In this document: positions 1 to 20,752 of the stretch, one piece after another | Position numbering within the stretch: the stretch's first letter is position 1 | Layout: each line of letters starts with the position of its first letter | Assembly: GCF_001899205.1 (NCBI RefSeq) | Contig: NZ_MKVL01000010.1 | Coordinates: 117,166 to 181,165, forward strand | DNA from: Mesorhizobium sp. 65-26 | GTDB taxonomy: Bacteria; Pseudomonadota; Alphaproteobacteria; Rhizobiales; Rhizobiaceae | Direction of reading: 5' to 3' | DNA length: 64,000 nucleotides | Made by a program: the position numbers and the translations under genes | Notes under the pieces: generated by a model | What the model was told of the DNA's origin: nothing | Database searches by the model: none | What the model saw: only the letters and a program-made list of their open reading frames with translations

Positions 1-908
1 ACGGCGATGCCGAGATTGACCTCTCGCGACAGCACCAGCGCGCCGCCGTCGAGGCGGGCGTTGACCTGCGGAAAGTCGCGCAGCGCTATGCAGGTGGCGC
101 GGGCGATGAAGGGCAGGTAGGTCAGCGACAGGCCATTGTCCTGCCTGAAGCGCTCCTTGCGCTCGGCGCGCACCCGCTCGACGGCCGTGAAATCGACTTC
201 GATCGCCTGGAAGACATGCGGGATGGTGCGCCAGTTCTCGGCCAGCCTCTCACCGGTCCGCCTGCGGATGGCATTCAGCGTCACCACCTCGCCGGTGGCG
301 GGCGCGGCGGAAACCGGCGCCGGCGCCTGCATGGCCGGCTCGGCGGCGGGCTCCGGCGCGCGTGAAATCCGTTCCGCCGGGGCCGCCGAGGCCAGGGCGG
401 CCCGTACGTCCTTTTCTCCGATCCTGCTGGTGCCCGAAGCGAGCGCGGCGCGCGCCAGCACGTCGGCGTCGAGACCGTTCTGGGCGATCAGCCGCCGCGC
501 CAGCGGCGTGATGCGGACACCGCCGGTCCTGGCCGGACCGAAGGCATCGAGCGGCGTCGACACTTCCTCGAACGGGGAGCGCGCCTCGGGGCGAGGGGCG
601 GGTTGCGGCGTTGGCGCCGTGCTGGCGGGCGCGGAGGCTACCGCGGCGGCCTTTGCGGCGGACAAACCCGCCGCGCCGCCGATGACGGCGACGACGGCGC
701 CGACCTTGGCCACTTCGCCGGACTTGACCCTGATCTCGCTGAGCGCGCCGGCGACGGTCGCCTGGACCTCCATCGTCACCTTGTCGGTCTCGATTTCGAA
801 GAGGTTGTCGCCTTCGTTGACCGCGTCGCCCTCCTGCTTGAACCAGGAGAGGATCCGGCCCTCGGCGACGGTCTCGCCGAGCTGCGGCATCAGGACGTCG
901 GCGCTCAT
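1..908 (-). CDS. Dihydrolipoamide acyltransferase (E2) of a 2-oxoacid/acetoin dehydrogenase complex, 3' end outside window
   Basis: Not in ORF track (runs off the edge). Read manually from ATG 908: MSADVLMPQLGETVAEGRILSWFKQEGDAV...FEIETDKVTMEV (lipoyl domain, lipoyl-Lys in ETDK), Ala/Pro linker, E3-binding motif (RITPLARRL). ATGA overlap with E1 beta stop. Confidence 0.93.
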   Translation of the reverse strand, partial: MSADVLMPQLGETVAEGRILSWFKQEGDAVNEGDNLFEIETDKVTMEVQATVAGALSEIRVKSGEVAKVGAVVAVIGGAAGLSAAKAAAVASAPASTAPTPQPAPRPEARSPFEEVSTPLDAFGPARTGGVRITPLARRLIAQNGLDADVLARAALASGTSRIGEKDVRAALASAAPAERISRAPEPAAEPAMQAPAPVSAAPATGEVVTLNAIRRRTGERLAENWRTIPHVFQAIEVDFTAVERVRAERKERFRQDNGLSLTYLPFIARATCIALRDFPQVNARLDGGALVLSREVNLGIA

Positions 909-1894
909 CTCTTCGACCCGTTCATGACCCGCGAGATCTTCTCGACGATGCGCGGCGCGTTCGGCAGCGCGAGATCCTCGAGGTGGTCGGCGGCCGGCAG
1001 CGGTATGTGCGGCGTGGTGATGCGCACGATCGGGCCGTCGAGGTCCCAGAACGCCTCGTCGGCGACGATGGAGGCGATCTCGGCGCCCCAGCCGCACAGG
1101 CGCGGATTCTCCTCGACGGTAAACAGCCGGCCGGTCTTCGCCACGGAAGCCAGGATGGTGGCCGTGTCGAGCGGCACCAGCGAGCGCACGTCGATGACCT
1201 CGCAGTCGATGCCGTGCTCCGCCGCCAGCGTCTCGGCGGCGGCCAGCGCGCGCGGAACCATCAGCGCCAGCGCCAGTATGGTGGCGTCCTTGCCCGGCCG
1301 CAGGATTTTCGCGGTGCCCAGGGTGTCGATGATCTCGCCGTCGGGAACCTCGCCCTTCACCGCGTAGAGCGATTTGTGCTCGTGGAAGATCACCGGATTG
1401 TCGTCGCGCACCGCCGCCGCCATTAGGCCGATGACATCGACCGGCGAGGAGGGGGCCACGACCTTGAGGCCGGGGATCATCATCGTCCAGTTCTCGATCG
1501 ACTGCGAATGCTGCGCGCCGAAGCGGGCGCCGCCGCCATTGCCGGTGCGCACCACCAGCGGGCAGCCGAGCTGGCCGTTGGTCATGTAGCGCAGCTTGGG
1601 GAATTCGTTGGCGATGTAGTCGAAGCAGACGGCGACGAAATCGGCGAACATGATCTCGGCGATCGGCCTCAGCCCCGTCATCGCCGCGCCCATGGCGGCG
1701 CCGAGGATGGCCTGTTCGGAGATCGGCGTGTCGCGCACCCGGCGCGGGCCGAATTTCTCGTAGAGACCGACGGTCGACTTGAACACGCCGCCGGCCTTGG
1801 CCACGTCCTCGCCCAGGAAGACGACGTTCTCGTCGCGCTCCATCTCCTGCGCGATGGCGCGGGCGACCGCGTCGCGATAGGTCAGTTCCGCCAT
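905..1894 (-). CDS. ThDP-dependent dehydrogenase E1 beta subunit (acetoin dehydrogenase AcoB/PdhB-like)
   Basis: MAELTYRDAVARAIAQEMERDENVVFLGEDV...RVRDTPISEQAILGAAMGAA...GAQHSQS; start trimmed to ATG 1894, overlapping E1 alpha stop. Confidence 0.95.
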   Translation of the reverse strand: MAELTYRDAVARAIAQEMERDENVVFLGEDVAKAGGVFKSTVGLYEKFGPRRVRDTPISEQAILGAAMGAAMTGLRPIAEIMFADFVAVCFDYIANEFPKLRYMTNGQLGCPLVVRTGNGGGARFGAQHSQSIENWTMMIPGLKVVAPSSPVDVIGLMAAAVRDDNPVIFHEHKSLYAVKGEVPDGEIIDTLGTAKILRPGKDATILALALMVPRALAAAETLAAEHGIDCEVIDVRSLVPLDTATILASVAKTGRLFTVEENPRLCGWGAEIASIVADEAFWDLDGPIVRITTPHIPLPAADHLEDLALPNAPRIVEKISRVMNGSKR

Positions 1895-2910
1895 GACCAT
1901 CCCCCGTCGGCGTAGACATCCGTGGTAAGCAATTCGGCCGGTGCCGGTGGCGAGGCCTTGCACAGTTCGGTGGCGGCCTCGACCTTGCGCTTGCTCTCGG
2001 CGTCGATGGCCGTGATCTCGGCCTCCGAGATGCCGAATTCCCTCAGCCGCTCGCGGTAGATCTTGACCGGGTCGCGCTCCAGCCATTTCTCCAGCTCGCC
2101 CTCGGGACGGTATTTCGCCGGATCGGCGCGCGAGTGGCCGGAATGCCGGTAGGTCATGCATTCGATGAGCGAGGGACCGCCGCCGTCGCGCGCTTTGACG
2201 AAGGCGGCCTGCGCGGTGCGGTAGACGACGTCGGCGTCGTTGCCGTCGACGACGATGCGCTCCAGCCCGTAGGCGGAGGCGCGGTCGGCGGCGGGATGCT
2301 CGACCGCCGTCACGTCGCCGATCGGCGTGTATTCCATGTAGAGGTTGTTCTCGCAGATGAAGACCACCGGCAGCTTCCAGATGGCGGCGAAGTTCAGCGC
2401 TTCGTGGAAGGCGCCGATGTTGGTGGTGCCGTCGCCGAAGAAGCAGACCGAGACGTCCTTCTGGCCGAGATATTGCGCCCGCCAGGCCGAGCCGCAGGCG
2501 ATCGGCAGGTGCGCGCCGATGATGGCGTAGGAGCCCATCACGCCGTGCTCCACCGAGGTCAGGTGCATCGAGCCGCCCTTGCCGCGCATGAGGCCGACGT
2601 CGCGCAGCATCAGTTCGCCCAGCACCTGCTCCATCGGCACGCCGCGCGCCAGAGTGTGGGCGTGGCCGCGATAGGTGCAGAACGACTTATCACCCGGCTG
2701 CATGGCCATGGCGACGCCGGCGGCGATCGCCTCCTGGCCGAGCGACAGGTGGCTGGTGCCCTTGATGAGGTTCTGGAAGAACAGATCGTTGGCGCGCTTC
2801 TCGCAGTCGCGGATCTCGACCTGGAGCCGGTAGAGCTCGAGCCGGGTTTCCGGGCCAATATCGTCGTTCGACAGGCCCGCCTTGCGGGACCCGGTGTGTT
2901 TTCCTGACAT
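1882..2910 (-). CDS. ThDP-dependent dehydrogenase E1 alpha subunit (acetoin dehydrogenase AcoA/PdhA-like)
   Basis: HLSLGQEA, YRGHAH, GKGGSMH, ThDP motif GDG...ENN, YRHSGHSRADPAKYR. C-terminal part of track ORF 1882..3915; start trimmed to ATG 2910. Confidence 0.95.
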   Translation of the reverse strand: MSGKHTGSRKAGLSNDDIGPETRLELYRLQVEIRDCEKRANDLFFQNLIKGTSHLSLGQEAIAAGVAMAMQPGDKSFCTYRGHAHTLARGVPMEQVLGELMLRDVGLMRGKGGSMHLTSVEHGVMGSYAIIGAHLPIACGSAWRAQYLGQKDVSVCFFGDGTTNIGAFHEALNFAAIWKLPVVFICENNLYMEYTPIGDVTAVEHPAADRASAYGLERIVVDGNDADVVYRTAQAAFVKARDGGGPSLIECMTYRHSGHSRADPAKYRPEGELEKWLERDPVKIYRERLREFGISEAEITAIDAESKRKVEAATELCKASPPAPAELLTTDVYADGGWSWRN

Positions 2911-2974
2911 GTTCTGGTTCCACCCTAGATGGGCAAACCATGCCAAAACTGTCCATGCCGGACATGGGTCATGA

Positions 2975-2989
2975 TTCTCATATTGAACA
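2975..2989. promoter_or_regulatory. Candidate operator, copy 1 (TTCTCA-TAT-TGAACA)
   Basis: Imperfect version of the palindrome at 3066-3080; lies 65 bp upstream of the E1 alpha start. Confidence 0.5.
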
Positions 2990-3065
2990 ATCTTTTCCTT
3001 ACGCGCCGCGTCGATGCATGGCAGCGCTGTCATGCGTCCGGGCGATGCCAGCGCGATTGCAAAGA

Positions 3066-3080
3066 TTCTCATTTTGAGAA
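3066..3080. promoter_or_regulatory. Candidate operator, copy 2 (TTCTCA-TTT-TGAGAA, perfect 6-3-6 palindrome)
   Basis: AT-rich palindrome in the divergent intergenic region between the aco-like operon and the regulator. Confidence 0.6.
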
Positions 3081-3381
3081 AATGTCGGGAGGCGGCCCCG
3101 GCCGTCGATGCTAGCATCCAGGATGGGAGGAGCTGTGCCCGCGCCCAGGAGGACCGACCCCGCAGGGGCGGCGGCGCCATTGCTCCATGTGGATGATGCC
3201 GGAACCGGCGGGACGCGATGCGCCCGGCGGCGCGACGTGCCGGGCCGGGATCGTGGCCCGGCTCGGGTCGCGGCCGACGAAAGGGGAGAATTGAGCGCGA
3301 AGGCGCGAGGCAGGCACAGGTCCGAGGGCAGCGCGCGGAGCCGATACCGGCGCGAGGCCTTGCTGAAGGGAGGAGGATCCG

Positions 3382-5133
3382 ATGCTCGGTTTTGTGGAAC
3401 AGGAAGCCGACCGGTCGCAGGCCGACCGGATGACAGATTACGAACTGCTTCGCATCATCAATTTCCTGGAGCGCATCCGCGTTCCCTATGACGAGAAACT
3501 GCAGGCGGCATCGCCCGATCCGGTCTGGAACATCGTGCTCTTCCTGATGAAGAGCCACCTGCGCGGCGACACCGTCACCATGTCGTCGCTGGCCTCGGTG
3601 TCGCAGATACCGTTCCCCAGCGCCATGCGCCGCATCCACAAGCTGATCGACGACGGCGACATCGAGCAGATGAACCGCAGCGCGACCGGCAAGTCGTTCT
3701 TCCTGGTGCCCAGTTCGCGGCTGAAATCCAGCTTCGTCGCCTATGCGATCCGGGTGAAGGCATTGCTGGCCGAGACCTTCGGGCTGGGCGGCGGTAGCGC
3801 CAACGCGGAGGAGTATTATTTCGGCGGTTCCTACCTCGCCGACCAGATCATCCCGCCGCTCAGGCTGATGGAGAGCCGCCAGGCGCCGAGCCAGGACCTG
3901 CGCTTCCTGCTGCATGACGACAACTACTTCTCGTCGATGCGCAACATGTGGTCAGACTTCCGCTCCAAGCTGTCGTCACGGCGCAATTTCCGGCTGCTGG
4001 GGCTGCCAGACCTGCACAAGGAACTGTTCCGCAATGCCCGCCGCCCGGCCAGCGAATACGACGTCATGGCGGTCAACATCCCTTGGCTCGGCGAGGCGGT
4101 GAAGCAGGGCTTGGTGCAGCCGCTCAACAGCTTCCTGGTCGACAGCGGCATCAACTCGCTGGACTTCCACCCCAACATCTGGGCGACCGGCAGCTGGGAC
4201 TCCGTGCAGTACGGCGTGCCGATCTACTGCACCATCGAGACGCTGGCCGCGCGCAAGGACCTTTTCGAGGCTCATGACCTGCACATGCCGACCAGCTTCG
4301 AGAAGGTGCTCGACGCGGCGCGGCAGCTGCACAATCCCAAGCGCGGCATGCACGGCATCGTCTGGAACGCCGCGCGCGGCATGCCGATCGCTCACTCCTT
4401 CATGTTCTTCATGGGCGCCTGCGGGCAGCCGGTCATCAACGTGCCGATGGCGCGCGTGGCCTTCGACTACAGCCACATGGCGGGCGAGATGTACCGTCCG
4501 CGCGTGCAGAGCGAGGCGGGCCTGCGCACGCTCGACTACATGCGCCGGCTGCTCGCCGTCTCGCCGGCCGACATCCTCGTCATGGACTGGAATCGGGCGC
4601 TCGACTGCTTCATGCTCGGCCAGTCGGCGATGATCTACTGCTGGACGATGCGCGCCTCGCGCTTCGAATACGACATCCGCTCGGTGGTGAAACGCAAGGT
4701 CGAGTACCTGCCGCATCCGCATGGGCCGGGCGGCGCCGTCGTCGGGCCCGTCGGAGGCTTCCTGCTGACCATCCCGGCCGGCCTGTCGCCGGAACGCGCC
4801 AAGCTCGCCTTCGAGGCGATATCCTGGATGGCCTCGCCGGCGGCGATGAAGGAGCACGTCAAGAATGGCATACCGGTGGCGCCGCGCTTCAGCGTCACCG
4901 CGGACCCGGAGGCCGCCGCCACCACGCCCATCGTGCGGATGGTCGACAGGCTCGCCAAGCAGAACAAGCTGCATGGCTGGCACCGTCCGCCGATCCCCGA
5001 ATACACGCTGGTCGAAAAGATCATCGGCGAGGAGATCTTCGCCGCGCTCAACGGCGAGCTCACCGACCGGGAGGCGCTGGAGCGCTGCCAGAACGGCATC
5101 GACAAGGTGATGCGCGCGGCTGGCCACTACTGA
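3382..5133 (+). CDS. Winged-helix DNA-binding domain fused to a family-1 (CUT1) solute-binding domain; probable cytoplasmic ligand-sensing regulator
   Basis: RBS GGAGGAGG before ATG. N-terminal ~130 aa MarR-like wHTH (VTMSSLASVSQIPFPSAMRRIHKLIDDGDIE...GKSFFLVPS), no signal peptide. C-terminal ~400 aa resembles sugar SBP (YDVMAVNIPWLGE, YGVPIY, RKDLFE, GGFLLTIP). Confidence 0.8.
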   Translation: MLGFVEQEADRSQADRMTDYELLRIINFLERIRVPYDEKLQAASPDPVWNIVLFLMKSHLRGDTVTMSSLASVSQIPFPSAMRRIHKLIDDGDIEQMNRSATGKSFFLVPSSRLKSSFVAYAIRVKALLAETFGLGGGSANAEEYYFGGSYLADQIIPPLRLMESRQAPSQDLRFLLHDDNYFSSMRNMWSDFRSKLSSRRNFRLLGLPDLHKELFRNARRPASEYDVMAVNIPWLGEAVKQGLVQPLNSFLVDSGINSLDFHPNIWATGSWDSVQYGVPIYCTIETLAARKDLFEAHDLHMPTSFEKVLDAARQLHNPKRGMHGIVWNAARGMPIAHSFMFFMGACGQPVINVPMARVAFDYSHMAGEMYRPRVQSEAGLRTLDYMRRLLAVSPADILVMDWNRALDCFMLGQSAMIYCWTMRASRFEYDIRSVVKRKVEYLPHPHGPGGAVVGPVGGFLLTIPAGLSPERAKLAFEAISWMASPAAMKEHVKNGIPVAPRFSVTADPEAAATTPIVRMVDRLAKQNKLHGWHRPPIPEYTLVEKIIGEEIFAALNGELTDREALERCQNGIDKVMRAAGHY

Positions 5134-5162
5134 CCGGCGGCGGCCTGCAGCGCGCCCGCCTG

Positions 5163-5177
5163 CTCTCAAAATGATAA
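5163..5177. promoter_or_regulatory. Candidate operator, copy 3 (CTCTCA-AAA-TGATAA)
   Basis: 13/15 match to the reverse complement of 3066-3080; upstream of the ABC importer operon. Confidence 0.55.
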
Positions 5178-5357
5178 ATTTTGCGGTTTGATCGCGCCCC
5201 TGGAACTGCAACTCTTTCCACCAGGCGCCAGGGAGGGCGCCTCCAGTCACATAGACCGGACCGAGCAACAGGACGCCCCGGAACCATGCGCCGGGCGTGA
5301 CGGGGACGGCTGCGCCGCAGCCAGGACTCCGGCTGAAACGCAGGTGGAGGAACTTAC

Positions 5358-6512
5358 ATGAGCAACATCTCAAGACGCCTTGCCATGCTTCTGGTGGGCG
5401 CCGCCGGACTGGCCGCGCTCGCCGCGCCTGTCCTGGCGCAGGACGCCAAGTTCTACAACGGCGCGCCGCGGACCTATCTCTACAATCCCAACACCGATGT
5501 CTGCTTCAAGGACACCACGCAATACAAGAAGGAAGGTCCCTACACGATCGGCTTCTCCAACGCAGGCCTCGGCGACTCCTGGCGCGTCGTCATGCTGCAT
5601 TCGTTGGAGGCTTCGGCCGCCAAGCACAAGGACCAGATCAAGAAGCTGATCATCACCGATGCGGGCCATGACGACGCCAAGCAGGTGGCCGACATCCAGG
5701 ACCTCATCTCGCGCGGCGTCGATCTCCTGATCGTCAGCGCCAACACCCAGCAGGCGCTCGATCCGGCCGTGTCGCAGGCCATGGCCGCGGGCATCCCGGT
5801 GGTGATGGTCGACCGCCGTGTCGCCTCCGACAATTTCGTCACCTTCGTCACCGCCTCCGACGCCATGATGGGCCGCCTGTTCGCGCAGTGGATCGTCGAG
5901 AAACTGCACGGCAAGGGCAACGTCGTCATGCTGGCCGGGCAAGCCGGTTCGAGCCCGTCCGAGAACCGCGAGAAGCCGGCCCGCGAGGTGTTTGCGCAGT
6001 ATCCGGGCATCAAGGTGCTGGAGACGGTCTATTCCGACTGGTCGCCGGTCAAGGGCAAGCAGGTGATGCAGGCCATGATCGCCAAGTACGGCAAGCAGAT
6101 CGACGCCGTGTGGTCGGCGCACGGGCTGCAGACGCCGGGCTCGATAGAGGCTTTCATCGAGGCCGGATACAAGGATGGCGAGATCCCGCCGCACACCACC
6201 TCCGACGTCAACGGGCCGCTGCAGATGGCGATCCAGCACAAGGTGCCGATGCTCGAGGTCGGCTATCCGCCGGCGATGGGCGGCGTCTCGGTCGATGTCG
6301 CGCTGCAGGTGCTGGCCGGCGCGCCGGTGCCCTGCATCTACACGATCAACTCGCAGATCGCCGTCAGCGAGGGCGACAACACGCCTTCGATCGAAACGCC
6401 GCTGCGGCTGACCGACATGGTGGTGCCCAAGGGCGCGCCGGACATGCTGATCACCGGCGGCATGGGGCCGGACTACGACCCGAAGACCTTCAAGGTCGAC
6501 TTCCCGCAATAA
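5358..6512 (+). CDS. Sugar ABC transporter periplasmic binding protein (RbsB-like, CUT2)
   Basis: RBS GGAGG; signal peptide (..AAPVLA-QD); YTIGFSN, GVDLLIVS, IPVVMVDR motifs. Confidence 0.93.
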   Translation: MSNISRRLAMLLVGAAGLAALAAPVLAQDAKFYNGAPRTYLYNPNTDVCFKDTTQYKKEGPYTIGFSNAGLGDSWRVVMLHSLEASAAKHKDQIKKLIITDAGHDDAKQVADIQDLISRGVDLLIVSANTQQALDPAVSQAMAAGIPVVMVDRRVASDNFVTFVTASDAMMGRLFAQWIVEKLHGKGNVVMLAGQAGSSPSENREKPAREVFAQYPGIKVLETVYSDWSPVKGKQVMQAMIAKYGKQIDAVWSAHGLQTPGSIEAFIEAGYKDGEIPPHTTSDVNGPLQMAIQHKVPMLEVGYPPAMGGVSVDVALQVLAGAPVPCIYTINSQIAVSEGDNTPSIETPLRLTDMVVPKGAPDMLITGGMGPDYDPKTFKVDFPQ

Positions 6513-6526
6513 GCCTCGGTTTCGCC

Positions 6527-6559
6527 GGCGGGGGCCGCGGCAGCGCCGCGGTTCCCGCC
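6527..6559 (+). terminator. GC-rich stem-loop after SBP gene (mRNA-stabilising/attenuating hairpin)
   Basis: GGCGGG-GG-CCGCGG-cagcg-CCGCGG-TT-CCCGCC; no poly-U tail. Confidence 0.5.
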
Positions 6560-6578
6560 GCAGAATTGGACAGGGCGA

Positions 6579-8099
6579 ATGCTTACCCTTTCAGGTATCT
6601 CGAAGAGCTTCATCGGCGTCAAAGCGCTGTCGGGCATCGACCTCGACGTACGCGCGGGCGAAATCCACGCGCTGGTCGGCGAGAACGGCGCCGGCAAATC
6701 GACGACGATCAAGATCGCGGCCGGCGTCTACCGGCCCGACGCCGGCCAGATCGTGTTCGAGGGCAAGCCGGTGCAGTGGACGAGGCCGGCCGAGGCGAAG
6801 AACGCCGGCATCCACGTCATCTACCAGGAGTTCGTGCTGTTCCCGCACCTGACGGTGGCCGAGAACATCTATCTCGGGCACGAGCGGCGCAACCGCTTCG
6901 GCTTCGTCGACCATGCGCGCACCCGCCGCGACGCGGCCGAACTGCTGCGCAAGCTCGGTGTCGAGATCGATCCGCGCATGCCGGTGTCGGAACTCACGGT
7001 GGCCGACCAGCAGATGGTGGAGATCTCCAAGGCGCTCGTCCACAAGGTGAAGCTTCTCATCCTCGACGAGCCGACGGCCGTCATCTCCGGCCGCGAGGCC
7101 GAGCTGCTGTTCGCCCGCCTGGCGGCGCTGAAGGCCGAGGGCGTGGCCATCCTCTATGTATCGCACCGGCTGGAGGAGATCTTCCAGATCGCCGATCGCG
7201 TCACCGTCTTCAAGGACGGCGCCCATGTCGCCACCAAGGCCATCGGCGAGGTGACGCGCGACAGGCTGATCTCGATGATGGTCGGGCGTGACCTGAAGGA
7301 CATCTTCCCGCCCAAGAAGCCGGCCGGCGCGCCGGGCAAGGTGGTGCTCAAGGCTCAGGATATTTCCGTCGCGGGCCGTGTCCGCAACGCCGGCATCGAG
7401 GCGAGGGCAGGCGAGATCACCGCGCTGGCGGGGCTGGTCGGCGCCGGCCGCACCGAGCTTGCCATGGGCATTTTCGGCGGCCTGCCGACGACATCCGGCG
7501 ACGTCTGGATCGATAGCGAGAAGGTCGAGGCGATGACGCCGGCAATCGCCATCCGCAAGGGCGTCGGCTTCGTGACCGAGGACCGCAAGGGCCAGGGACT
7601 GGCGATGCTGCTCGATGTCGCCGCCAACGTCACCGCCGCGAACCTGTCGGCGGTGACGCGCAACGGCCTCATCGACAGGCGTCGCGAGAACGAGATCGCG
7701 CGACAGGAGATCGAGAACTACAGGATCGTCTGCCGTGGCCCGGCCACGGCCGTCGCCACCATGTCGGGGGGCAACCAGCAGAAGGTGATCGTGGCGCGCT
7801 GGGCGCGCACCAGCCGCAAGGTGCTGATCCTGGACGAGCCGACGCGCGGCGTCGATGTCGGCGCCAAGACGGAGATCTACCGCATCATGCGCGGCCTGGC
7901 GGAGCAGGGCATCGCGGTCCTGATGATCAGCTCGGAGCTGCCAGAGGTGGTCGGCATGGCTGACCGCGTCGTGGTGATGCGCGAAGGCGTCGTCAGTGGC
8001 GAGCTCGCCGGGGCCGACATCAGCGAGGAGGCGATCATGAGCCTTGCCACCCAGCATCCGGGCGCCCAGGCGCCAGCCATGGAGGGCCTGCCGCAATGA
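6579..8099 (+). CDS. Sugar ABC transporter ATP-binding protein (two ABC domains, RbsA-like)
   Basis: Walker A GENGAGKS, ILDEPT twice, MSGGNQQK signature. Confidence 0.96.
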   Translation: MLTLSGISKSFIGVKALSGIDLDVRAGEIHALVGENGAGKSTTIKIAAGVYRPDAGQIVFEGKPVQWTRPAEAKNAGIHVIYQEFVLFPHLTVAENIYLGHERRNRFGFVDHARTRRDAAELLRKLGVEIDPRMPVSELTVADQQMVEISKALVHKVKLLILDEPTAVISGREAELLFARLAALKAEGVAILYVSHRLEEIFQIADRVTVFKDGAHVATKAIGEVTRDRLISMMVGRDLKDIFPPKKPAGAPGKVVLKAQDISVAGRVRNAGIEARAGEITALAGLVGAGRTELAMGIFGGLPTTSGDVWIDSEKVEAMTPAIAIRKGVGFVTEDRKGQGLAMLLDVAANVTAANLSAVTRNGLIDRRRENEIARQEIENYRIVCRGPATAVATMSGGNQQKVIVARWARTSRKVLILDEPTRGVDVGAKTEIYRIMRGLAEQGIAVLMISSELPEVVGMADRVVVMREGVVSGELAGADISEEAIMSLATQHPGAQAPAMEGLPQ

Positions 8100-9058
8100 G
8101 CGCGATCGCTCCCGCCCAGCGGCCGACGAGGCTGCGCAACAACCAGGGCATCCTCGTCGTCGCGGCGCTGCTGGTGGCGCTGCTGATCTTCGGCGCTTTC
8201 ATCTCCGACCGCTTCCGCACCCTCTCCAACATCCTCAACATACTGGAGCAGTCGACGGGCCTCGCCCTGGTCAGCCTCGGCCAGACGCTGACCATCCTGA
8301 CCGGCGGCATCGACCTGTCCGTCGGCTCGTTGATCAGCCTGCTGTCGACGCTGACTTCCGGCCTGATCGCCGGCAAGGCGTCGATGGTGCTGCCGGTCGC
8401 GATCGGCGTGCTGCTGCTCGGCCTGCTGGTCGGCATCGCCAACGGGCTGCTGATCATCTGGCTGCGCGTCCATCCGCTCATCGTCACGCTGGGCATGGGG
8501 GCTGTGCTGCAGGGCATCGTGCTGCTCTATTCGCTGGGCCCGGCGGGTGCGGTGCCGCCAGGCTTCAACTACCTCGCCTACGGCCGGCTGCTCGGCGTGC
8601 CGGTCGGCGCCATCGTCATCGTCGTGCTGTTCCTGCTGGTCGGGCTCTTCCTGCGCTACGCCAGGCTCGGCCGCTACATCTACGCGGTCGGCGACGACGA
8701 GGCCGGCGCGCGGCTGATGGGCCTGCCACGCGCGCGGGTGCTGCTTACCGTCTACGGCTTCTCCGGCTTTTGCTGCGGGCTGGCCGCCATCTACCTCACC
8801 AGCCGATTCAGCGTCGGCCAGCCCTATACGGGGCTCAACTACACGCTCGCCTCGATCACGCCCGTCTTGGTCGGCGGCACGCTGCTCAGCGGCGGCAAGG
8901 GCGGTGTGCTGGGCACGCTGCTCGGCGTCTACCTCATCTCGCTGATCAACAACGTCCTCAATTTCATGGACGTGTCGACGCACTACCAGCTCATCGCCCA
9001 GGGCCTGATCGTCATCGCGGCGGTGTCGATCTATGTCGAGAAGAAGAAGAGGGTCTGA
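8096..9058 (+). CDS. Sugar ABC transporter permease (RbsC-like)
   Basis: Hydrophobic; TGGIDLSVGS, GRYIYAVG, LVGGTLLSGGKG. Confidence 0.95.
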   Translation: MSAIAPAQRPTRLRNNQGILVVAALLVALLIFGAFISDRFRTLSNILNILEQSTGLALVSLGQTLTILTGGIDLSVGSLISLLSTLTSGLIAGKASMVLPVAIGVLLLGLLVGIANGLLIIWLRVHPLIVTLGMGAVLQGIVLLYSLGPAGAVPPGFNYLAYGRLLGVPVGAIVIVVLFLLVGLFLRYARLGRYIYAVGDDEAGARLMGLPRARVLLTVYGFSGFCCGLAAIYLTSRFSVGQPYTGLNYTLASITPVLVGGTLLSGGKGGVLGTLLGVYLISLINNVLNFMDVSTHYQLIAQGLIVIAAVSIYVEKKKRV

Positions 9059-10032
9059 TGGTCGACGTCTCGCAAGGCACGGCCCCGGAAATCGGCGCCC
9101 CCACCGCTTCCGCCAGGAGCCGCCTGTCCGCTTACGCCCTGCCGATCTTCCTCGTCGCGCTGATCGCCGTCTCCGGCATCGTGTCGCCGGCGTTCTTGTC
9201 CGGCTCCAACATCTCCAACATGCTGCTGCAGGTGGCGCCGCTCGGCATCGTGGTGATCGGCCAGGCCTTCGTCATCATCCTGCGCGGCCTCGACCTGTCG
9301 GTGGCCTCGGTCATGGCGACGGCGGCGGTGATCGCCACCGGCTTCTCCGGCCAGAACTCCGACGTGCTGCCGATCGTGCTGATCGCCGTCGGCATCGGCG
9401 TCGCCACCGGCCTCGTCAACGGGCTGCTGGTCACCAAGCGCAGCGTCTCGCCCTTCCTGGCGACGCTCGCCACCATGATTGTGCTGCAGGGCTTCCGCTT
9501 CGCCTATACGCAAGGCGCGCCGTCGGGCAACGTGCCGCCGTTGTTCCGTCAGATCGGCTCGGCCACCTGGCACGGGCTGCCCTACAACATGATGCTGATG
9601 CTGGTGCTCGCCGTCGTCTTCGGCGTGCTGCTGTCTAGGTCGCGTTTCGGCCGCGAAGTCTACATCACCGGCGGCAATCCGACGACGGCGCGGCTGCTGG
9701 GCATCAATGCCGACCGCGTGACGGTAATCGGCTACATCATCTCGGGCGCGCTGGCGGCCGTCGCCGGCCTGGTGCTGAGCGGCTATGTCGGCATCGTCGA
9801 CAACTGGGTCGGACGCGGCTTCGAGCTGGACTCGATCGTGGCGGCGGTGATGGGCGGCATCTCGCTGTCGGGCGGCCGCGGAGGCATTGCCGGCGGCCTT
9901 TTCGGCGCGGCCATTCTGGTGGTCGTCTTCAACGCGGTGCTGCTGTTCGGGCTGCCTGTCCAGCTCCAGATCATCATCAAGGGCATCGTCATCGTGCTGG
10001 CCGCAGCTTTCTACGTGCGCCGGCGCGTGTGA
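9058..10032 (+). CDS. Second sugar ABC transporter permease (RbsC-like)
   Basis: TGATG overlap with previous stop; RGLDLSVAS, FGREVYITGGN, VMGGISLSGGRG. C-terminal part of track ORF 8044..10032. Confidence 0.94.
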   Translation: MVDVSQGTAPEIGAPTASARSRLSAYALPIFLVALIAVSGIVSPAFLSGSNISNMLLQVAPLGIVVIGQAFVIILRGLDLSVASVMATAAVIATGFSGQNSDVLPIVLIAVGIGVATGLVNGLLVTKRSVSPFLATLATMIVLQGFRFAYTQGAPSGNVPPLFRQIGSATWHGLPYNMMLMLVLAVVFGVLLSRSRFGREVYITGGNPTTARLLGINADRVTVIGYIISGALAAVAGLVLSGYVGIVDNWVGRGFELDSIVAAVMGGISLSGGRGGIAGGLFGAAILVVVFNAVLLFGLPVQLQIIIKGIVIVLAAAFYVRRRV

Positions 10033-10082
10033 CGCGCCGCGCCGGCCGGCTGGCCGGGCGGAAGAATTCGAGGAGGAAACAC

Positions 10083-10850
10083 ATGGGCAGACTTCAGGAC
10101 AAGATCGCCGTCGTCACCGGCGGCTCGCGGGGCATCGGCGGCGCTACCGTGCGCCGCTTCGCCGAGGAGGGCGCCAAGGTCGCGATCTTCGACGTGCTCG
10201 CCGAGGATGGCGAGGCGCTGGCGGCCGAGCTTTCGCGCGACGGCGGCGACGTGATCTTCGTCAAGGTCGACATCACCGACGAGAAACAGGTCGAGGCGGC
10301 GGTCTCGCGGGTGACCGGAAAATGGGGCCGGCTGGACATACTGGTCAACAACGCCGCCATCACCGGCGCCAACAAGTTCGCGCATGAGGTGACGGTGGAG
10401 GAGTGGGACCGCGTCTTCGACGTCAACGTCAAGGGCACGTTCCTGTGCACCAAATACGCGGTGCGGCCGATGATGGCGCAGAAATCCGGCTCCATCGTCA
10501 ATTTCTCGTCGATCTATGGACTGATCGGCAATGACGACATCCCGCCCTATCACGCCACGAAGGGCGCCACGCTGATGATGAGCAAGACCGACGCCATCTG
10601 CTACGCGCCCTACGGCATAAGGGTGAACGCCGTGCATCCCGGCTCGACCATGACCGAGATTTTCATGAAGTGCGCCGACACCTATCCGAAGGGCAAGCAG
10701 GCCTATCTCGACATGATGAAGGAAAAGCACCCGCTGCGCCTCGGCGAGCCGGTGGATGTCGCGAACTGCGTTCTTTTCCTCGCGTCGGAGGAGGCGCGCT
10801 TCGTCACCGGCGCCAGCCTCGTCGTCGACGGCGGCTACACCACGCAGTGA
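10083..10850 (+). CDS. Short-chain dehydrogenase/reductase (SDR)
   Basis: RBS GAGGAGG; TGGSRGIG, NNAA, YHATK (YxxxK), VDGGY. Confidence 0.95.
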   Translation: MGRLQDKIAVVTGGSRGIGGATVRRFAEEGAKVAIFDVLAEDGEALAAELSRDGGDVIFVKVDITDEKQVEAAVSRVTGKWGRLDILVNNAAITGANKFAHEVTVEEWDRVFDVNVKGTFLCTKYAVRPMMAQKSGSIVNFSSIYGLIGNDDIPPYHATKGATLMMSKTDAICYAPYGIRVNAVHPGSTMTEIFMKCADTYPKGKQAYLDMMKEKHPLRLGEPVDVANCVLFLASEEARFVTGASLVVDGGYTTQ

Positions 10851-10968
10851 AAGCGGAGGGCGCATCAGAAATGGCGCTCAACCCATTGTTTTCGCGGCAT
10901 TCCCTGGGGGAAGTCGTCTCATCTTTATCCTGGACTTGTTCCAGGCAGCATATCGCGGAGAGCAGCGC

Positions 10969-12036
10969 ATGAAGGCCGTCAGATTCCACGGAGCCAGGGA
11001 CATCAGGGTCGAGGACGTCGCCGAGCCGACGGCCAGGCTCGGCGCGCATGACGTGCTGATCAAGCCGATCACCACGGGCATATGCGGCACGGACCTGCAC
11101 GAATACATCGCCGGGCCGATCGTCACGCCGTCGACGCCGCATGTCTATACCGGCGCGACCAACCCGCAGATACTCGGCCATGAGTTCAGCGCGGTGGTGG
11201 CCGACACCGGCTCGGCGGTGACCAATGTGAAGGCTGGCGACCGCGTCTCCATCCAGCCGCTGATTTCGCCGCGCGACGACTATTTCGGCCGCCGCGGCCT
11301 CTACCATCTCAGCCCGCAAATGGCTTGCGTCGGGTTGAGCTGGGCCTGGGGCGGCATGGGGGAGCTCGCCATCGTCAACGACTACAACGTCGTGCCGGTG
11401 CCGAAAGGGGTGAGCGACGTGCAGGCGGCGATGATCGAGCCGGCTGCGGTCGCCATCTACGGCACCGACCGGGGCGGCGTGCAGTCGGGCTCGACGGTGC
11501 TGGTCTCGGGCGCCGGCCCGATCGGCGCGCTGACCCTGCTGGCGGCGAAGGCGGCGGGCGCGGCGCGCATCTTCGTCTCGGAGCCGAATCCCAACCGCCT
11601 CGCCAAGGCGAAGGAACTGATCCCGGACTGCATCGCCATCGACCCGACCAGGGACAATCTCGACGAGATCATCGCCGACCATACCGAGGAGGGGGTAGGC
11701 GTGGATGTCGCGCTGGAATGCGTCGGGCTGGAGGCCAGCCTCAACGCCTGCGCCAGGGCGGTGCGCCGCCAGGGCAAGGTTGTGCAGACCGGTCTGCATA
11801 TGAAGCCGGCCAGCATCGACGCCATGCTGTGGGCGCTCAAGGACATCACGGTCGAGGCGACCTGGTGCTACCCGGTGCAGATCTGGCCGCGTGTCATTCG
11901 CATGGTGGAGGCCGGCATCCTGCCGCTGGAGAAGGTGGTGACCGCCAACATCAGCGCCGAGGACGTGGTCGAGAAAGGCTTCGAGGCGCTGCTCGACAAG
12001 GCGGGAAAGCACCTGAAGATCCTGGTGAACATCTGA
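10969..12036 (+). CDS. Zn-dependent medium-chain dehydrogenase, 2,3-butanediol dehydrogenase-like
   Basis: GICGTDLHEY, LGHEF, GAGPIG, HLKILV; start trimmed to ATG 10969. Confidence 0.9.
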   Translation: MKAVRFHGARDIRVEDVAEPTARLGAHDVLIKPITTGICGTDLHEYIAGPIVTPSTPHVYTGATNPQILGHEFSAVVADTGSAVTNVKAGDRVSIQPLISPRDDYFGRRGLYHLSPQMACVGLSWAWGGMGELAIVNDYNVVPVPKGVSDVQAAMIEPAAVAIYGTDRGGVQSGSTVLVSGAGPIGALTLLAAKAAGAARIFVSEPNPNRLAKAKELIPDCIAIDPTRDNLDEIIADHTEEGVGVDVALECVGLEASLNACARAVRRQGKVVQTGLHMKPASIDAMLWALKDITVEATWCYPVQIWPRVIRMVEAGILPLEKVVTANISAEDVVEKGFEALLDKAGKHLKILVNI

Positions 12037-12099
12037 ATGGGCGGGGGCGCGCCGCGCCCCTTCCGCCGCACCACCGGACATCAACATCGGAGGAGAGAC

Positions 12100-12879
12100 A
12101 TGGCAGGCAATGCATTCGCGAACTATTCGCTGGAGGGCCGCACCGCGCTGGTCACCGGCGCGGCCGGCGGCATCGGCGGCGCCATCACCGAGCGGCTGGC
12201 AAGCCTTGGCGCGAGGGTGGTTCTGGCCGACGTCACCGACCGCGTGGTCGAGGTCGCCAAGGGCTGGGCGGACAAGGGCTACAAGACCAAGGGCGTCAAG
12301 GTCGATGTCACCAACAGCGCCGAGGTCGAGCGGGCGGCGGCAAGCCTCAACGAGGAGTTCGGCGCGGTCGACATACTGGTCGCCAATGCCGGCATTTCCT
12401 ATGAGAGCGACACGGCCGGGCATTCCGACGAGGACTGGCGCCGCTGCATGGCGATCAACCTCGACGGCATCTTCTACTGCGTGCGCTCCTTCGGCAAACG
12501 CATGGTGGAGCGCAAGCGCGGCAGCATCGTCTGCATTTCCTCGATCGCCGGCGTCAAGGCGGTGCGGCCGGAGCTGCACGCCGGCTATGACGTCTCCAAG
12601 GCCGGCGTGGCGCATCTGTGCCGGGTGGTCGGCGTCGAATGGGCGCCGCATAATGTCCGCGTCAATGCCGTCGGGCCGGGCTACACCGAAACCGAGATGC
12701 TGAAGAAGGTGGGCGCCGCGCAGCCCGCGGTCATGGCCACCTGGATCGGCGACACGCCGATGAAGCGCCTCTTGCAGCCGGCCGAGATCGCGGCCTCGGT
12801 GGCATTCCTGGCCTCCGACGCCGCCAGCGGCATCACAGGCCATGTGTTGATGACCGACGCCGGCTATTCGGTGGCGTGA
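12100..12879 (+). CDS. Short-chain dehydrogenase/reductase (SDR)
   Basis: RBS GGAGG; TGAAGGIG, ANAG, YDVSK, RVNAVGPG. Confidence 0.94.
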   Translation: MAGNAFANYSLEGRTALVTGAAGGIGGAITERLASLGARVVLADVTDRVVEVAKGWADKGYKTKGVKVDVTNSAEVERAAASLNEEFGAVDILVANAGISYESDTAGHSDEDWRRCMAINLDGIFYCVRSFGKRMVERKRGSIVCISSIAGVKAVRPELHAGYDVSKAGVAHLCRVVGVEWAPHNVRVNAVGPGYTETEMLKKVGAAQPAVMATWIGDTPMKRLLQPAEIAASVAFLASDAASGITGHVLMTDAGYSVA

Positions 12880-13916
12880 ACATGGCGGCGGAACGGGACA
12901 TGACCGCGACATCCGATGGGCCCGTCAGGATCGCCATGGTCGGCCTCGGCTGGTGGGGCCGCAAGATGGTGGCGGTGCTCGGCGGCGCCAAGGCGCATAT
13001 CGAGGTGGCGCGGGCGGTCGAGCCGGCGCCGGGCGCGGAAGAATTCTGCGCCGCCAACGGGCTTGCGCTGAGCACCGACTATGCCGAGGCGCTCGCCGAT
13101 CCAGGCGTCGAGGCGGTGATCCTGGCGACGCCGCATTCGCTGCACGAGGAGCAGATCGAGCGCGCCGTGGCTGCGGGCAAGCATGTATTCTGCGAAAAGC
13201 CGCTGGCCATGACCAGGACTGGGGCGGAGAGGGCCGTGGCGCTGTGCCGCGATGCCGGGCTGGTGCTCGGCATGGGCCACGAGCGGCGTTTCGAGCCGCC
13301 GATCGCCATGATCCTCGAGGCCGCCGCCGATGGTCGCCTCGGCCGCGTGCTGCAGGTCGAGGCCAATTTCAGCCACGACAAGTTCCTCGGGCTCGATCCG
13401 TCGAACTGGCGGCTCAACGCCAGCCAGGCGCCGGCCGCCGGCATGACGGCGACCGGCATCCACCTCACCGACCTGTCGACGCGGCTGCTCGGCCCGGCGC
13501 GCGACGTGCGCGTCGCCTGCGAGAACCTCGCCTCGGAAATTCCCCAGGGCGATACGCTGAGCGCGCATATCCGCTTCCATGGCGGCGGCACAGCCTACGT
13601 GTCGGCGACGCTGGCGACGCCCTTCGTGTCGCGCTTCGCCGTGTTCGGCACCAAGGGCTGGATCGAGGTGCGCGACAAGGCGCATGTCGAGGCGCCAGCC
13701 GGCTGGGTGGTGACCAGCGCATGGACTGGCACGCCGATCGAGGTGCGGGAGGTGGCACCCGCCGAGCCGGTTCGCGACAACCTCGTCGCCTTCGCCGAGG
13801 CGGTGCGCGGCAGGCGCGCCTACCCGATCACCGGCGAGGAGATGATCAACAACATCGCCATCCTCGAGAGCATCATCCGATCGGCCGGCACCGGCATGGT
13901 CGAGCTCGTGGCCTGA
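12876..13916 (+). CDS. Gfo/Idh/MocA family oxidoreductase
   Basis: VGLGWWG, ILATPHSLH, FCEKPLA, GIHLTD; exact start (12876/12882/12900) uncertain. Confidence 0.92.
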   Translation: MNMAAERDMTATSDGPVRIAMVGLGWWGRKMVAVLGGAKAHIEVARAVEPAPGAEEFCAANGLALSTDYAEALADPGVEAVILATPHSLHEEQIERAVAAGKHVFCEKPLAMTRTGAERAVALCRDAGLVLGMGHERRFEPPIAMILEAAADGRLGRVLQVEANFSHDKFLGLDPSNWRLNASQAPAAGMTATGIHLTDLSTRLLGPARDVRVACENLASEIPQGDTLSAHIRFHGGGTAYVSATLATPFVSRFAVFGTKGWIEVRDKAHVEAPAGWVVTSAWTGTPIEVREVAPAEPVRDNLVAFAEAVRGRRAYPITGEEMINNIAILESIIRSAGTGMVELVA

Positions 13917-13940
13917 ACGACAGCAAGCGGAGAGACGAAC

Positions 13941-14921: not shown

Positions 14922-14933
14922 AGGGAGCAAGCA

Positions 14934-15233: not shown

Positions 15234-15357
15234 GCATCCCGTGGCATCCGGCGGCATTCTCATTCTGGATATCTTTCGCGCCCGCGCCAGCGGCACCCGC
15301 GACTAGACTTTCACCATCCGGTGCTGGAGGGCGCCGGCGGCGATCAGGGAGGCGACG

Positions 15358-20731: not shown

Positions 20732-20752
20732 GGTGTCGTCCCGGTCAGTATG

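What the first reader, a model, noticed from the sequence alone, without database searches (positions are those of the whole stretch)
3382..5133. Winged-helix regulator that uses a cytoplasmic ABC solute-binding domain as its sensor
Seen: a wHTH N-terminus joined directly to a CUT1-type SBP fold with no signal peptide, placed between a divergent ThDP-dehydrogenase operon and an importer whose own SBP belongs to a different (RbsB/CUT2) class. Known: LacI regulators use a type-I PBP fold and SgrR uses a family-5 SBP fold; a MarR-like wHTH plus family-1 SBP is not a well-characterised regulator class. Inference: a one-component sensor of an imported sugar or ketol that controls the 16-kb catabolic island.
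Basis: partly seen in the sequence, partly recalled or inferred. Interest (0 to 1): 0.72.

Follow-up and report, generated by a model that had tools for sequence, protein, structure and literature searches.

The report
Cytoplasmic regulator with transporter-type sugar sensor
This Mesorhizobium gene, labelled in every database as an exported sugar-binding protein, most likely encodes a DNA-binding regulator that stays inside the cell, uses a transporter-type binding domain as its sensor, and appears to control the neighbouring sugar-alcohol breakdown genes through a conserved DNA palindrome.

Summary
ORF 3382-5133 (conserved start probably 3430, giving 567 aa) fuses three parts. The first is a MarR-like winged helix (PDB profile hit to a SlyA-like MarR, E 7.6e-6; MarR_2 in 24 of 34 family members). 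The second is a strongly conserved linker. The third is a family-1 ABC solute-binding fold (PF01547, E 2e-21; TM 0.86 to the ribitol-binding protein 5IAI).

It has no signal peptide, whereas the neighbouring CUT2 binding protein has one. The N-domain was found only in this fusion: about 205 clusters at 50% identity, in Alpha- and some Betaproteobacteria, all named "extracellular solute-binding protein".

Across 70 loci the gene travels with a CUT2 importer, Zn/GFO/SDR dehydrogenases and an acetoin-dehydrogenase-like E1/E2/E3 operon.

I found a candidate operator, AAATTCTCA-N3-TGAGAATTT. Its only three matches in the 64-kb window flank this gene (2972, 3063, 5160). It recurs at the same promoters in other genera. 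It sits 28-29 nt from an extended -10-like element.

DNA binding, the ligand and the sign of regulation are inferred, not shown. This is a new variant of a known kind: SgrR is analogous but not detectably homologous. Interest is moderate.

The parts
3382..5133 (+). Regulator gene (called REG here): 583 aa from ATG 3382, or 567 aa from the family-conserved ATG 3430
   Evidence: ORF and translation. GC3 0.91. Over 120 homologues at 66-92% identity, mostly 567 aa.
3430..3786 (+). N-terminal MarR-like winged helix-turn-helix domain (residues 17-135). Predicted recognition helix is residues 78-90, about 3613-3651, and contains the family-invariant Arg83.
   Evidence: AF2 secondary structure and pLDDT. 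Profile hits to MarR/SlyA/TubR structures. MarR_2, HTH_IclR and MarR hits in family members. Invariant R67 in M17 numbering across 43 diverse members.
3787..3900 (+). Inter-domain linker (residues ~136-173) with the invariant YYFGG..Y...QIIPPL motif
   Evidence: Invariant columns Y145 Y146 F147 G148 G149 Y151 Q155 I157 P158 P159 L160. Lower AF2 confidence, pLDDT 52-73.
3901..5130 (+). C-terminal family-1 (CUT1/MalE-like) solute-binding fold, the presumed cytoplasmic ligand sensor
   Evidence: PF01547/PF13416. PDB sequence profile 5iai E 7.7e-38, 1eu8, 4rya. Foldseek TM(target) 0.83-0.87.
2972..2992 (.). Candidate operator U1 (TGATTCTCATATTGAACAATC), facing the E1 alpha operon
   Evidence: PWM 22.6 bits; one of only 3 hits >=12 bits in 64 kb, against 0 in shuffles. 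Conserved in Mesorhizobium, Kaistia and L008.
3063..3083 (.). Candidate operator U2 (AGATTCTCATTTTGAGAAAAT; core TTCTCA-N3-TGAGAA is a perfect palindrome), facing REG
   Evidence: PWM 36.4 bits. One mismatch to ATTCTCANNNTGAGAAT. Conserved across genera.
5160..5180 (.). Candidate operator D1 (CTGCTCTCAAAATGATAAATT), facing the CUT2 importer/dehydrogenase operon
   Evidence: PWM 19.8 bits. The orthologous site scores 27-33 bits in L004-L009.
2937..2945 (-). TGg-CATGGT, an extended -10-like element 29 nt from U1. Predicted E1 alpha promoter, with transcription start near 2930.
   Evidence: Fixed-spacing analysis. Sequence.
3109..3117 (+). TGc-TAGCAT, an extended -10-like element 28 nt from U2. 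Predicted REG promoter, with transcription start near 3124 and a leader of about 260 nt.
5207..5215 (+). TGc-AACTCT, an extended -10-like element 29 nt from D1. Predicted importer-operon promoter, with transcription start near 5222.
1..2910 (-). Presumed target operon 1: E1 alpha (1882-2910), E1 beta (905-1900) and the lipoyl-E2 N-terminus (1-908, cut by the window edge) of an acetoin/pyruvate-dehydrogenase-like ThDP complex
   Evidence: Pfam E1_dh, Transket_pyr and Transketolase_C. NCBIfam PDH E1 alpha/beta models. The E2 reading frame starts MSADVLMPQLGETV...ETDKV.
5358..16077 (+). Presumed target operon 2. CUT2 importer: Peripla_BP_4 5358-6512, ATPase 6579-8099, permeases 8096-9058 and ~9079-10032. 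Then SDR 10029-10850, Zn-ADH ~10990-12036, SDR 12037-12879, GFO/IDH/MocA 12876-13916, Zn-ADH 13941-14921, ABM 14934-15233 and SDR 15358-16077.
   Evidence: Pfam and NCBIfam. Synteny with REG in 70 loci.

Best explanation
REG is a cytoplasmic one-component transcription factor.

Shown by sequence and structure prediction: a MarR-like winged-helix domain is fused, through a strongly conserved linker, to a complete family-1 ABC solute-binding fold that has lost its export signal.

Inferred from comparative genomics: a REG dimer binds the 15-21 bp palindrome AAATTCTCA-N3-TGAGAATTT. In this window the palindrome sits once in front of each of three promoters: the E1 alpha-E1 beta-E2 operon, REG itself, and the CUT2 importer/dehydrogenase operon.

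Inferred by analogy with other binding-protein-fold sensors: the C-terminal domain closes around a small imported polyol or ketol, or an early oxidation product. Its nearest solved relatives bind ribitol and sorbitol. The linker would transmit that closure to the DNA-binding dimer.

At the catabolic promoters the site keeps a fixed 28-29 nt distance from an extended -10-like element with no good -35, which places the site centre near -51. I therefore favour ligand-dependent activation there. In Aestuariivirga-type genomes the site overlaps REG's own -35, which suggests autorepression. That would make REG a dual regulator, as SgrR is annotated in E. coli.

My confidence is about 0.75 that REG is the DNA-binding regulator of this island, and about 0.45 for the activator sign.
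For: Domain evidence is.

REG has no signal peptide, while the neighbouring transporter binding protein has one.

The N-domain occurs only in this fusion. There are 205 clusters, the full-length ones are 541-633 aa, and the short hits are fragments or frameshifted copies.

REG co-occurs with ADH-GFO-ADH, a CUT2 ABC importer and E1 alpha/beta in 70 loci. The same context holds for members at ~36-63% identity in Ensifer and Maritimibacter and for a Mesorhizobium paralogue.

No other regulator gene lies in window 1-23 kb.

The palindrome gives only three hits >=12 bits in 64 kb, all flanking REG, against 0 in shuffles. It recurs upstream of REG, E1 alpha, SDR1/ADH1 and the importer in other genera.

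The TGn-nAnnnT element falls at offset 28 or 29 in 44 of 132 flanks, and at no more than 3 flanks for any other offset.

In 7 of 7 Aestuariivirga-type REG promoters the right half-site TTGAGA lies 16-17 nt from a TAGNNT -10.

The distant paralogue loci L076 and L077 each have a single perfect AT-rich 6-N3-6 palindrome in the whole locus. It lies 66-84 nt upstream of the REG homologue and has different half-sites (ATCCA).

5IAI holds ribitol (PMC8468352). The depositors name 4RYA a sorbitol-binding protein.
Against: There is no experimental datum for DNA binding, ligand binding, localisation or expression. The RNA-labelled public runs gave only flat contigs that span intergenic DNA.

Many loci are related, so the site counts are not independent events.

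The -10 assignments are weak matches and no transcription start is mapped. Extended -10 promoters are not the textbook alphaproteobacterial type.

MarR-family proteins are mostly ligand-released repressors.

Members at 45-56% identity (L055-L069) lack this palindrome near the gene.

The N-domain could not be tested by fold search, because the SBP domain dominated both searches.
Confidence: 0.72

Rival explanations
1. Same protein and same operator, but REG is a classical MarR-type repressor. It occupies the palindromes without ligand, and binding of the polyol or ketol to the SBP domain releases it, de-repressing all three promoters.
For: The DNA-binding domain is MarR-like, and most MarR proteins are ligand-released repressors (established knowledge). 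In Aestuariivirga-type loci the site overlaps the -35 of REG's own promoter. U1 lies only ~72 nt from the E1 alpha start codon.
Against: The fixed 28-29 nt spacing to a -10-like element at four or five different promoter types, with no recognisable -35, is what is expected of an activator. A repressor has no need for one phase.
Confidence: 0.3
2. REG is what the databases call it: an extracytoplasmic solute-binding protein of an ABC transporter, with an unusual N-terminal extension.
For: Strong SBP_bac_1 match and fold. Every source names it 'extracellular solute-binding protein'.
Against: It has no signal peptide, lipobox or hydrophobic segment. The N-terminus is a conserved wHTH homologous to MarR. 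The adjacent permeases are CUT2 (BPD_transp_2) and have their own exported Peripla_BP_4 protein. No CUT1 permease pair lies next to it in any locus examined.
Confidence: 0.03
3. The palindrome belongs to another, unlinked regulator. REG is a cytoplasmic ligand-binding protein whose winged helix serves protein-protein contacts or binds some other DNA.
For: No binding experiment exists. Winged helices can mediate protein contacts. Members at 45-56% identity lack the motif.
Against: The motif tracks the REG gene itself, 55-90 nt upstream in nine loci of other genera. It is confined to REG-flanking promoters in the window. Divergent paralogues carry a same-geometry palindrome with changed half-sites directly upstream. 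The recognition-helix arginine is invariant in 43 diverse members.
Confidence: 0.1

Closest known systems
SgrR (E. coli b0069; SgrR_N winged helix + family-5 solute-binding domain)
   Same: A one-polypeptide regulator: an N-terminal winged helix followed by a cytoplasmic ABC solute-binding fold without a signal peptide. RefSeq annotates it as a dual regulator. The proposed logic is the same, with the binding-protein fold acting as the sensor.
   Different: No detectable homology. BLASTP E 0.74. hhalign of the N-domain profile gives probability 2%, aligning only the HTH. The sensor here is family 1 (PF01547/PF13416), not family 5. The targets are catabolic operons and an importer, not a small RNA. 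This looks like an independent fusion.
MarR/SlyA family regulators
   Same: The DNA-binding domain is homologous (4mnu E 7.6e-6; MarR_2 in 24 of 34 members). It has the same helix order, with a long helix on either side of the wHTH. The operator is palindromic.
   Different: MarR proteins are single-domain, about 140-180 aa, and bind ligands within the dimer. This protein has 567 aa and a separate ~410-aa sensor domain. Pfam's MarR models do not reach significance on the window protein itself.
CUT1 / family-1 ABC binding proteins for polyols and disaccharides (5IAI ribitol, 4RYA sorbitol, 1EU8 trehalose/maltose)
   Same: The fold and sequence family of residues ~174-583.
   Different: No export signal, no cognate CUT1 permeases, and fusion to a DNA-binding domain.
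LacI/GalR and LysR regulators
   Same: The general principle of a periplasmic-binding-protein fold used as a cytoplasmic effector domain of a transcription factor (established knowledge).
   Different: Those families use other PBP classes (type I Peripla_BP_1/3; LysR_substrate) and other DNA-binding domains (HTH_LacI, HTH_1). None of these Pfam families matches REG.
TrmB (archaeal and Thermotogae sugar-sensing wHTH regulators)
   Same: An N-terminal winged helix plus a C-terminal sugar-sensing domain, controlling a sugar ABC transporter operon. 12 of 34 family N-domains give weak TrmB-domain hits.
   Different: The TrmB effector domain is not an ABC solute-binding fold (my own knowledge, not tested here).

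Membership tests
MarR family | Winged helix-turn-helix of the MarR type | tested here: met
   The profile of the N-domain hits MarR/SlyA structures (best E 7.6e-6). MarR_2 hits 24 of 34 members and MarR 16 of 34. AF2 topology is H-H-H-H-beta-beta-H.
MarR family | Single-domain protein of ~140-180 aa whose ligand pocket lies within the wHTH dimer | tested here: not met
   567-583 aa, with a separate 410-aa SBP-fold domain.
MarR family | Homodimer binding a palindromic operator | tested here: inconclusive
   A conserved palindrome was found at the expected promoters. Dimerisation and binding were not measured.
SgrR family | SgrR_N winged helix plus SBP_bac_5 domain | tested here: not met
   The Pfam hits are SBP_bac_1 and SBP_bac_8 only. 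There is no significant similarity to E. coli SgrR.
ABC transporter solute-binding protein, family 1 (CUT1) | SBP_bac_1 fold | tested here: met
   PF01547 E 2e-21. TM(target) 0.86 to 5IAI.
ABC transporter solute-binding protein, family 1 (CUT1) | N-terminal signal peptide or lipobox for export | tested here: not met
   Hydropathy scan of the first 70 residues, compared with the neighbouring binding protein. No dedicated signal-peptide predictor was available.
ABC transporter solute-binding protein, family 1 (CUT1) | Encoded beside its two CUT1 permeases (BPD_transp_1) and an ATPase | tested here: not met
   The adjacent permeases are BPD_transp_2 (CUT2) and have their own Peripla_BP_4 protein. 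The same holds in loci L001, L076 and L077.
LacI/GalR family | HTH_LacI domain plus type-I Peripla_BP_1/3 domain | tested here: not met
   Neither family appears among the Pfam hits at E<=1.
One-component regulator (DNA-binding output fused to a small-molecule input domain) | Input and output domains in one cytoplasmic polypeptide | tested here: met
One-component regulator (DNA-binding output fused to a small-molecule input domain) | Ligand-dependent change in DNA binding or transcription | not testable with these tools
   Needs EMSA, a reporter or RNA-seq with candidate ligands.

The most novel reading that the evidence does not exclude
REG founds an unrecognised family of one-component regulators. 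In this family a MalE-like (family-1) binding protein was brought into the cytoplasm and fused to a MarR-like winged helix, independently of SgrR. It acts as a ligand-dependent activator from about -51 at extended -10 promoters. It governs a so far undescribed polyol/ketol pathway that ends in a ThDP-dependent acetoin-dehydrogenase-like cleavage. Its half-site specificity (TTCTCA versus ATCCA) has diversified among paralogues.
Probability: 0.4. Interest if true: 0.68.

Novelty: new variant of a known kind. Interest (0 to 1): 0.58.

Why it matters
Three reasons.

1. About 200 sequence clusters of this protein are named "extracellular solute-binding protein" or "multiple sugar transport system substrate-binding protein" in NCBI, UniRef and IMG. 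If they are regulators, transporter inventories of rhizobia and marine Rhodobacterales are inflated and their regulator inventories are short.

2. The work gives a ready, testable regulon: operator, three promoters and target operons. The targets form a widespread catabolic island with no assigned substrate, and the sensor domain could be used in a ligand screen to identify that substrate.

3. A family-1 binding protein wired to a winged helix is a natural template for sugar or polyol biosensors, since MalE-type domains are well-studied engineering scaffolds.

It does not change the general picture. Binding-protein folds already serve as regulator sensors in LacI, LysR and SgrR.

Tried and rejected
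- **Fold search for the N-domain.** Both Foldseek searches were dominated by the SBP domain, including the one on the poor first model. The winged-helix assignment therefore rests on profile searches and predicted topology.
- **The search for related loci with the diverse alignment A2.** It failed because the alignment has no conserved stretch. The closer alignment A1 worked.
- **Expression evidence.** The "RNA?" runs holding about half the words gave contigs of flat depth that also cover intergenic DNA, so nothing can be said about transcription starts or induction. All other runs were DNA metagenomes from bioreactors and wastewater.
- **Rfam on 2800-5500 at E<=1.** No family matched.
- **Sigma-54 reading of the conserved TTGGCAC/TGGCAT element.** Rejected. 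The GG-N10-GC spacing is not met in Mesorhizobium (8 nt), and there is no GC at -12 in the Aestuariivirga-type loci (sequences).
- **Leader ORF 3108-3491 (possible GTG 3135 after GGGAGGAG).** Rejected. It is not in the list of ORFs that passed the codon-position GC filter, and L004-L007 have no start codon at that place.
- **Another regulator in the island.** None lies in 1-23 kb. The GntR-like frame at ~23.0-23.9 kb (-) sits with the malonyl-CoA decarboxylase and AMP-ligase genes, as it does in Kaistia.
- **Paralogue of REG in the window.** None.
- **Literature.** Six full-text searches found no paper describing a wHTH plus family-1 SBP regulator or this gene cluster. The solute-binding-protein signalling review covers only extracytoplasmic proteins.
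- **Substrate of the island.** NCBIfam gives only sub-threshold similarity (threonine, scyllo-inosose or idonate dehydrogenase-like Zn-ADHs, IolG/xylose-dehydrogenase-like GFO, YtfQ/RbsB-like binding protein), so no pathway could be named.
Full report
**1. What is there**

The window has 65-70% G+C. Its closest relatives are Mesorhizobium genomes: REG is 92% identical to proteins of M. sp. YC-39, M. sanjuanii, M. metallidurans and M. helmanticense.

ORF 3382..5133 (+) encodes 583 aa. Its codon-position G+C (0.62/0.43/0.91) matches the neighbouring genes. A GGAGGAGG box precedes ATG 3382. The 16 residues before M17 are conserved only within Mesorhizobium, Kaistia and close relatives. Most homologues are 567 aa and start MT(D/E)YELLRII, which corresponds to ATG 3430. 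The choice of start does not affect anything below.

**2. The two domains**

*The C-terminal domain.*
- Pfam places SBP_bac_1 (E 2e-21) and SBP_bac_8 (E 5.8e-16) on residues 224-510. It finds nothing on residues 1-170, and NCBIfam finds nothing at all.
- A family profile finds the ABC binding proteins 5IAI (E 7.7e-38), 1EU8 and 4RYA, always from query position ~161 onwards.
- A first AlphaFold run on 18 close homologues was poor overall (pLDDT 49.6) but confident for residues 19-132. A second run on 43 sequences down to 28% identity gave pLDDT 86.3 and pTM 0.83.
- Foldseek on the second model gives TM(target) 0.86, 0.87 and 0.83 to 5IAI, 1EU8 and 4RYA.
- 5IAI holds ribitol (PMC8468352). The depositors label 4RYA a sorbitol-binding protein.

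*The N-terminal domain.* In numbering from M17, the model has helices 3-23, 31-45, 51-57 and 62-74, a beta hairpin at 78-82/90-94, and a helix at 96-116. This is the order of a MarR-type winged helix.
- Fold search could not isolate the domain, so I built a 34-sequence alignment of it.
- Its profile hits a SlyA-like MarR regulator (4mnu, E 7.6e-6), TubR (4.8e-4), SlyA (1.9e-3) and a long series of MarR-family structures.
- Scanned one by one at E<=1, 24 of 34 members hit MarR_2 (best 1.6e-8), 23 hit HTH_IclR, 16 hit MarR and 12 hit TrmB.
- One arginine in the predicted recognition helix is the only invariant residue of the domain across 43 diverse members.

*The linker.* The sequence between the domains carries an invariant YYFGG.Y...QIIPPL motif.

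**3. Not exported**

No 11-residue window in the first 70 residues exceeds Kyte-Doolittle 1.5. The protein-wide 19-residue maximum is 1.51, and it lies inside the SBP fold. The adjacent transporter binding protein begins with a textbook signal peptide. No dedicated predictor was available, so this is a hydropathy argument, reinforced by the folded winged helix at the N-terminus.

**4. Distribution**

- HMMER with the N-domain against 1.84 billion representatives found 205 clusters at E<=1e-3. All full-length ones are 541-633 aa.
- Ten short hits I read were fragments or frameshifted copies that run into the linker or the SBP sequence. The domain was therefore seen only in this fusion.
- Members come from Hyphomicrobiales (Mesorhizobium, Ensifer, Kaistia, Bradyrhizobium, Aestuariivirga, Martelella), Rhodobacterales, a Dongiaceae genome and a Polaromonas genome.
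- Every name given by a source is some form of "extracellular/ABC transporter solute-binding protein".

**5. Genomic context**

- Upstream and divergent lie E1 alpha (1882-2910), E1 beta (905-1900) and the lipoyl-E2 start (908 downwards) of a pyruvate/acetoin-dehydrogenase-like complex.
- Downstream lie a CUT2 importer (5358-10032) and then SDR, Zn-ADH, SDR, GFO/IDH/MocA, Zn-ADH, ABM, SDR, cupin, DAO and OYE genes, up to ~19.2 kb.
- tblastn of these proteins against 70 REG loci shows the ADH-GFO-ADH trio (66-80% identity), a CUT2 importer and E1 alpha/beta next to REG throughout Hyphomicrobiales. GFO and an SDR stay nearby even in the Rhodobacterales members at 45% identity (gene calls in 17, 18).
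- Members at ~36-63% identity in Ensifer and Maritimibacter, and a Mesorhizobium paralogue, again sit beside CUT2 importers, dehydrogenases and E1/E2/E3 genes.
- REG is the only regulator-like gene in the conserved set.

**6. A candidate operator**

The intergenic regions flanking REG contain AT-rich boxes that stay constant between Mesorhizobium, Kaistia and two MAG lineages while the DNA around them diverges. The shared core is TTCTCA-N3-TGA(G/T)AA.

- A symmetrised weight matrix built from 37 sites in other loci has the consensus AAATTCTCAAATTGAGAATTT. In the 64-kb window it gives three hits at >=12 bits, at 2972 (22.6), 3063 (36.4) and 5160 (19.8). Twenty shuffles gave none.
- A consensus search with 3 mismatches gave 4 matches against 0.85 expected. 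One of these is a weak site at 15256 upstream of the last SDR, which did not reach 12 bits.
- Across loci, sites at >=15 bits fall 55-90 nt upstream of REG, in the divergent region between the SDR/ADH operon and E1 alpha, and ~190-280 nt upstream of the importer's binding-protein gene. The motif is also present in Ensifer.
- Members at 45-56% identity lack it.
- In the Maritimibacter and Mesorhizobium-paralogue loci, the only perfect AT-rich 6-N3-6 palindrome in the whole locus lies 66-84 nt upstream of the REG homologue. Its half-sites are different (TATCCA / AATCCA). This is what is expected if the family binds this geometry and specificity has drifted.

**7. Promoter geometry**

- I aligned all flanks on the site. 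A TGn-nAnnnT element, resembling an extended -10, occurs 28 nt (27 times) or 29 nt (17 times) from the site edge in 132 flanks, and at most 3 times at any other offset.
- It occurs at several different promoter types: E1 alpha (TGGCA(T/C)NGT), the REG leader in Mesorhizobium-type loci (TGCTAGCAT), the importer operon (TGCAACTCT) and the SDR/ADH operon (TAGGAT).
- In the window these elements lie at 2937-2945 (-), 3109-3117 (+) and 5207-5215 (+), which puts the site centres near -51.
- A constant phase with no clear -35 argues for activation.
- By contrast, in seven Aestuariivirga-type loci the site upstream of REG supplies TTGAGA as a -35, 16-17 nt from a TAGNNT -10. That is the geometry of autorepression.
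- These are pattern-based inferences. No transcription start is known, and many of the loci are related.

**8. Mechanism proposed**

REG would be a cytoplasmic dimeric winged-helix protein that binds the palindrome. Its binding-protein domain would sense an imported small polyol or ketol, or an early product. Closure of that domain would be relayed by the conserved linker. The output would be activation of the importer/dehydrogenase and E1/E2/E3 operons, with autoregulation of REG.

- Shown: domain composition, absence of an export signal, synteny, and the motif with its placement.
- Inferred: DNA binding by REG, ligand class, sign of regulation, and allostery.

**9. Comparison with known systems**

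- The nearest analogue in architecture is E. coli SgrR (winged helix plus family-5 binding domain; "dual regulator" in RefSeq). There is no detectable homology in either domain, so this is a parallel invention.
- The DNA-binding domain is homologous to MarR, but the protein fails the single-domain definition of that family.
- The sensor is a family-1 binding protein, but it fails the export and cognate-permease criteria.
- LacI and LysR share only the principle.
- I found no paper describing this architecture or this island. Absence from that library is not proof of absence.

**10. Verdict**

The finding is real. It is a conserved, systematically misnamed regulator family with a predicted operator and regulon. 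I rate it a new variant of a known kind, with moderate interest (0.58). Confidence is about 0.72 for the regulator role and lower for the activator sign.

Noticed in passing
window 5224-5241 (within the predicted leader 5222-5357): A stem-loop GGCGCC-AGGGAG-GGCGCC lies just after the predicted start of the importer-operon transcript. It is kept in five loci with compensatory changes at three stem pairs (e.g. G-C to A-U in L004 and L006). The rest of the ~135-nt leader is also partly conserved. No Rfam family matches.
   Followed up: partly
window 3125-3133 and 3180-3186 (REG leader): The ~260-nt leader of REG starts with a conserved GGGAGGAGC that can pair with TTGCTCC ~50 nt downstream. Both are kept in Mesorhizobium L004-L007, and Kaistia has GGGAG...CTCCC at the same place. 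Like the importer leader, it carries a GGGAGG box soon after the predicted start. Function unknown. The overlapping ORF 3108-3491 does not look coding.
   Followed up: partly
L076 7935-7955; L077 7917-7937; L063 19564-19584: Distant REG paralogue loci carry palindromes of the same 6-N3-6 geometry but with ATCCA half-sites (TATCCA-N3-TGGATA, AATCCA-N3-TGGATT). In L063 one lies ~80 nt upstream of an OYE-family gene. Hybrid sites with one TGGATA half occur in L008 (5993) and weakly in the window at 15256-15272.
   Followed up: partly
L002 4745-5998; L075 2656-3909; L076 10711-12009: A Peptidase_M24-family gene is embedded in or next to the E1/E2/E3 operon in Kaistia, Ensifer and Maritimibacter. 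This is an odd partner for a 2-oxoacid/acetoin dehydrogenase complex and may be a clue to the unknown substrate.
   Followed up: no
window 19205-23900: Convergent with the island lie an AMP-dependent ligase (19205-20731, -), a malonyl-CoA decarboxylase (20753-22192, -), an SDR (22210-23010, +) and a GntR-like frame (~23.0-23.9 kb, -). This resembles a malonate-utilisation (mat-like) cluster, and the same neighbours occur in Kaistia.
   Followed up: partly
L001 867-9013: In Aestuariivirga litoralis the genes just upstream of REG are GFO/IDH/MocA, Rieske, AP_endonuc_2, a CUT2 ABC importer, FA_hydroxylase and LacI. This set resembles the rhizopine (moc) catabolic genes (resemblance recalled from memory, not tested).
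   Followed up: no
window 1800-6600, public runs X25-X27 and X34: Runs flagged 'RNA?' hold a 95-99% identical copy of the whole region as contigs of flat depth that cross intergenic DNA. They behave like DNA or total nucleic acid. The exact window sequence occurs in bioreactor and wastewater metagenomes from several studies.
   Followed up: partly
window 3382-5133 and all homologues: NCBIfam has no model that touches this protein, even at E<=1. Every public name found for the family is a transporter binding-protein name, so this is a systematic annotation error affecting about 200 clusters.
   Followed up: yes
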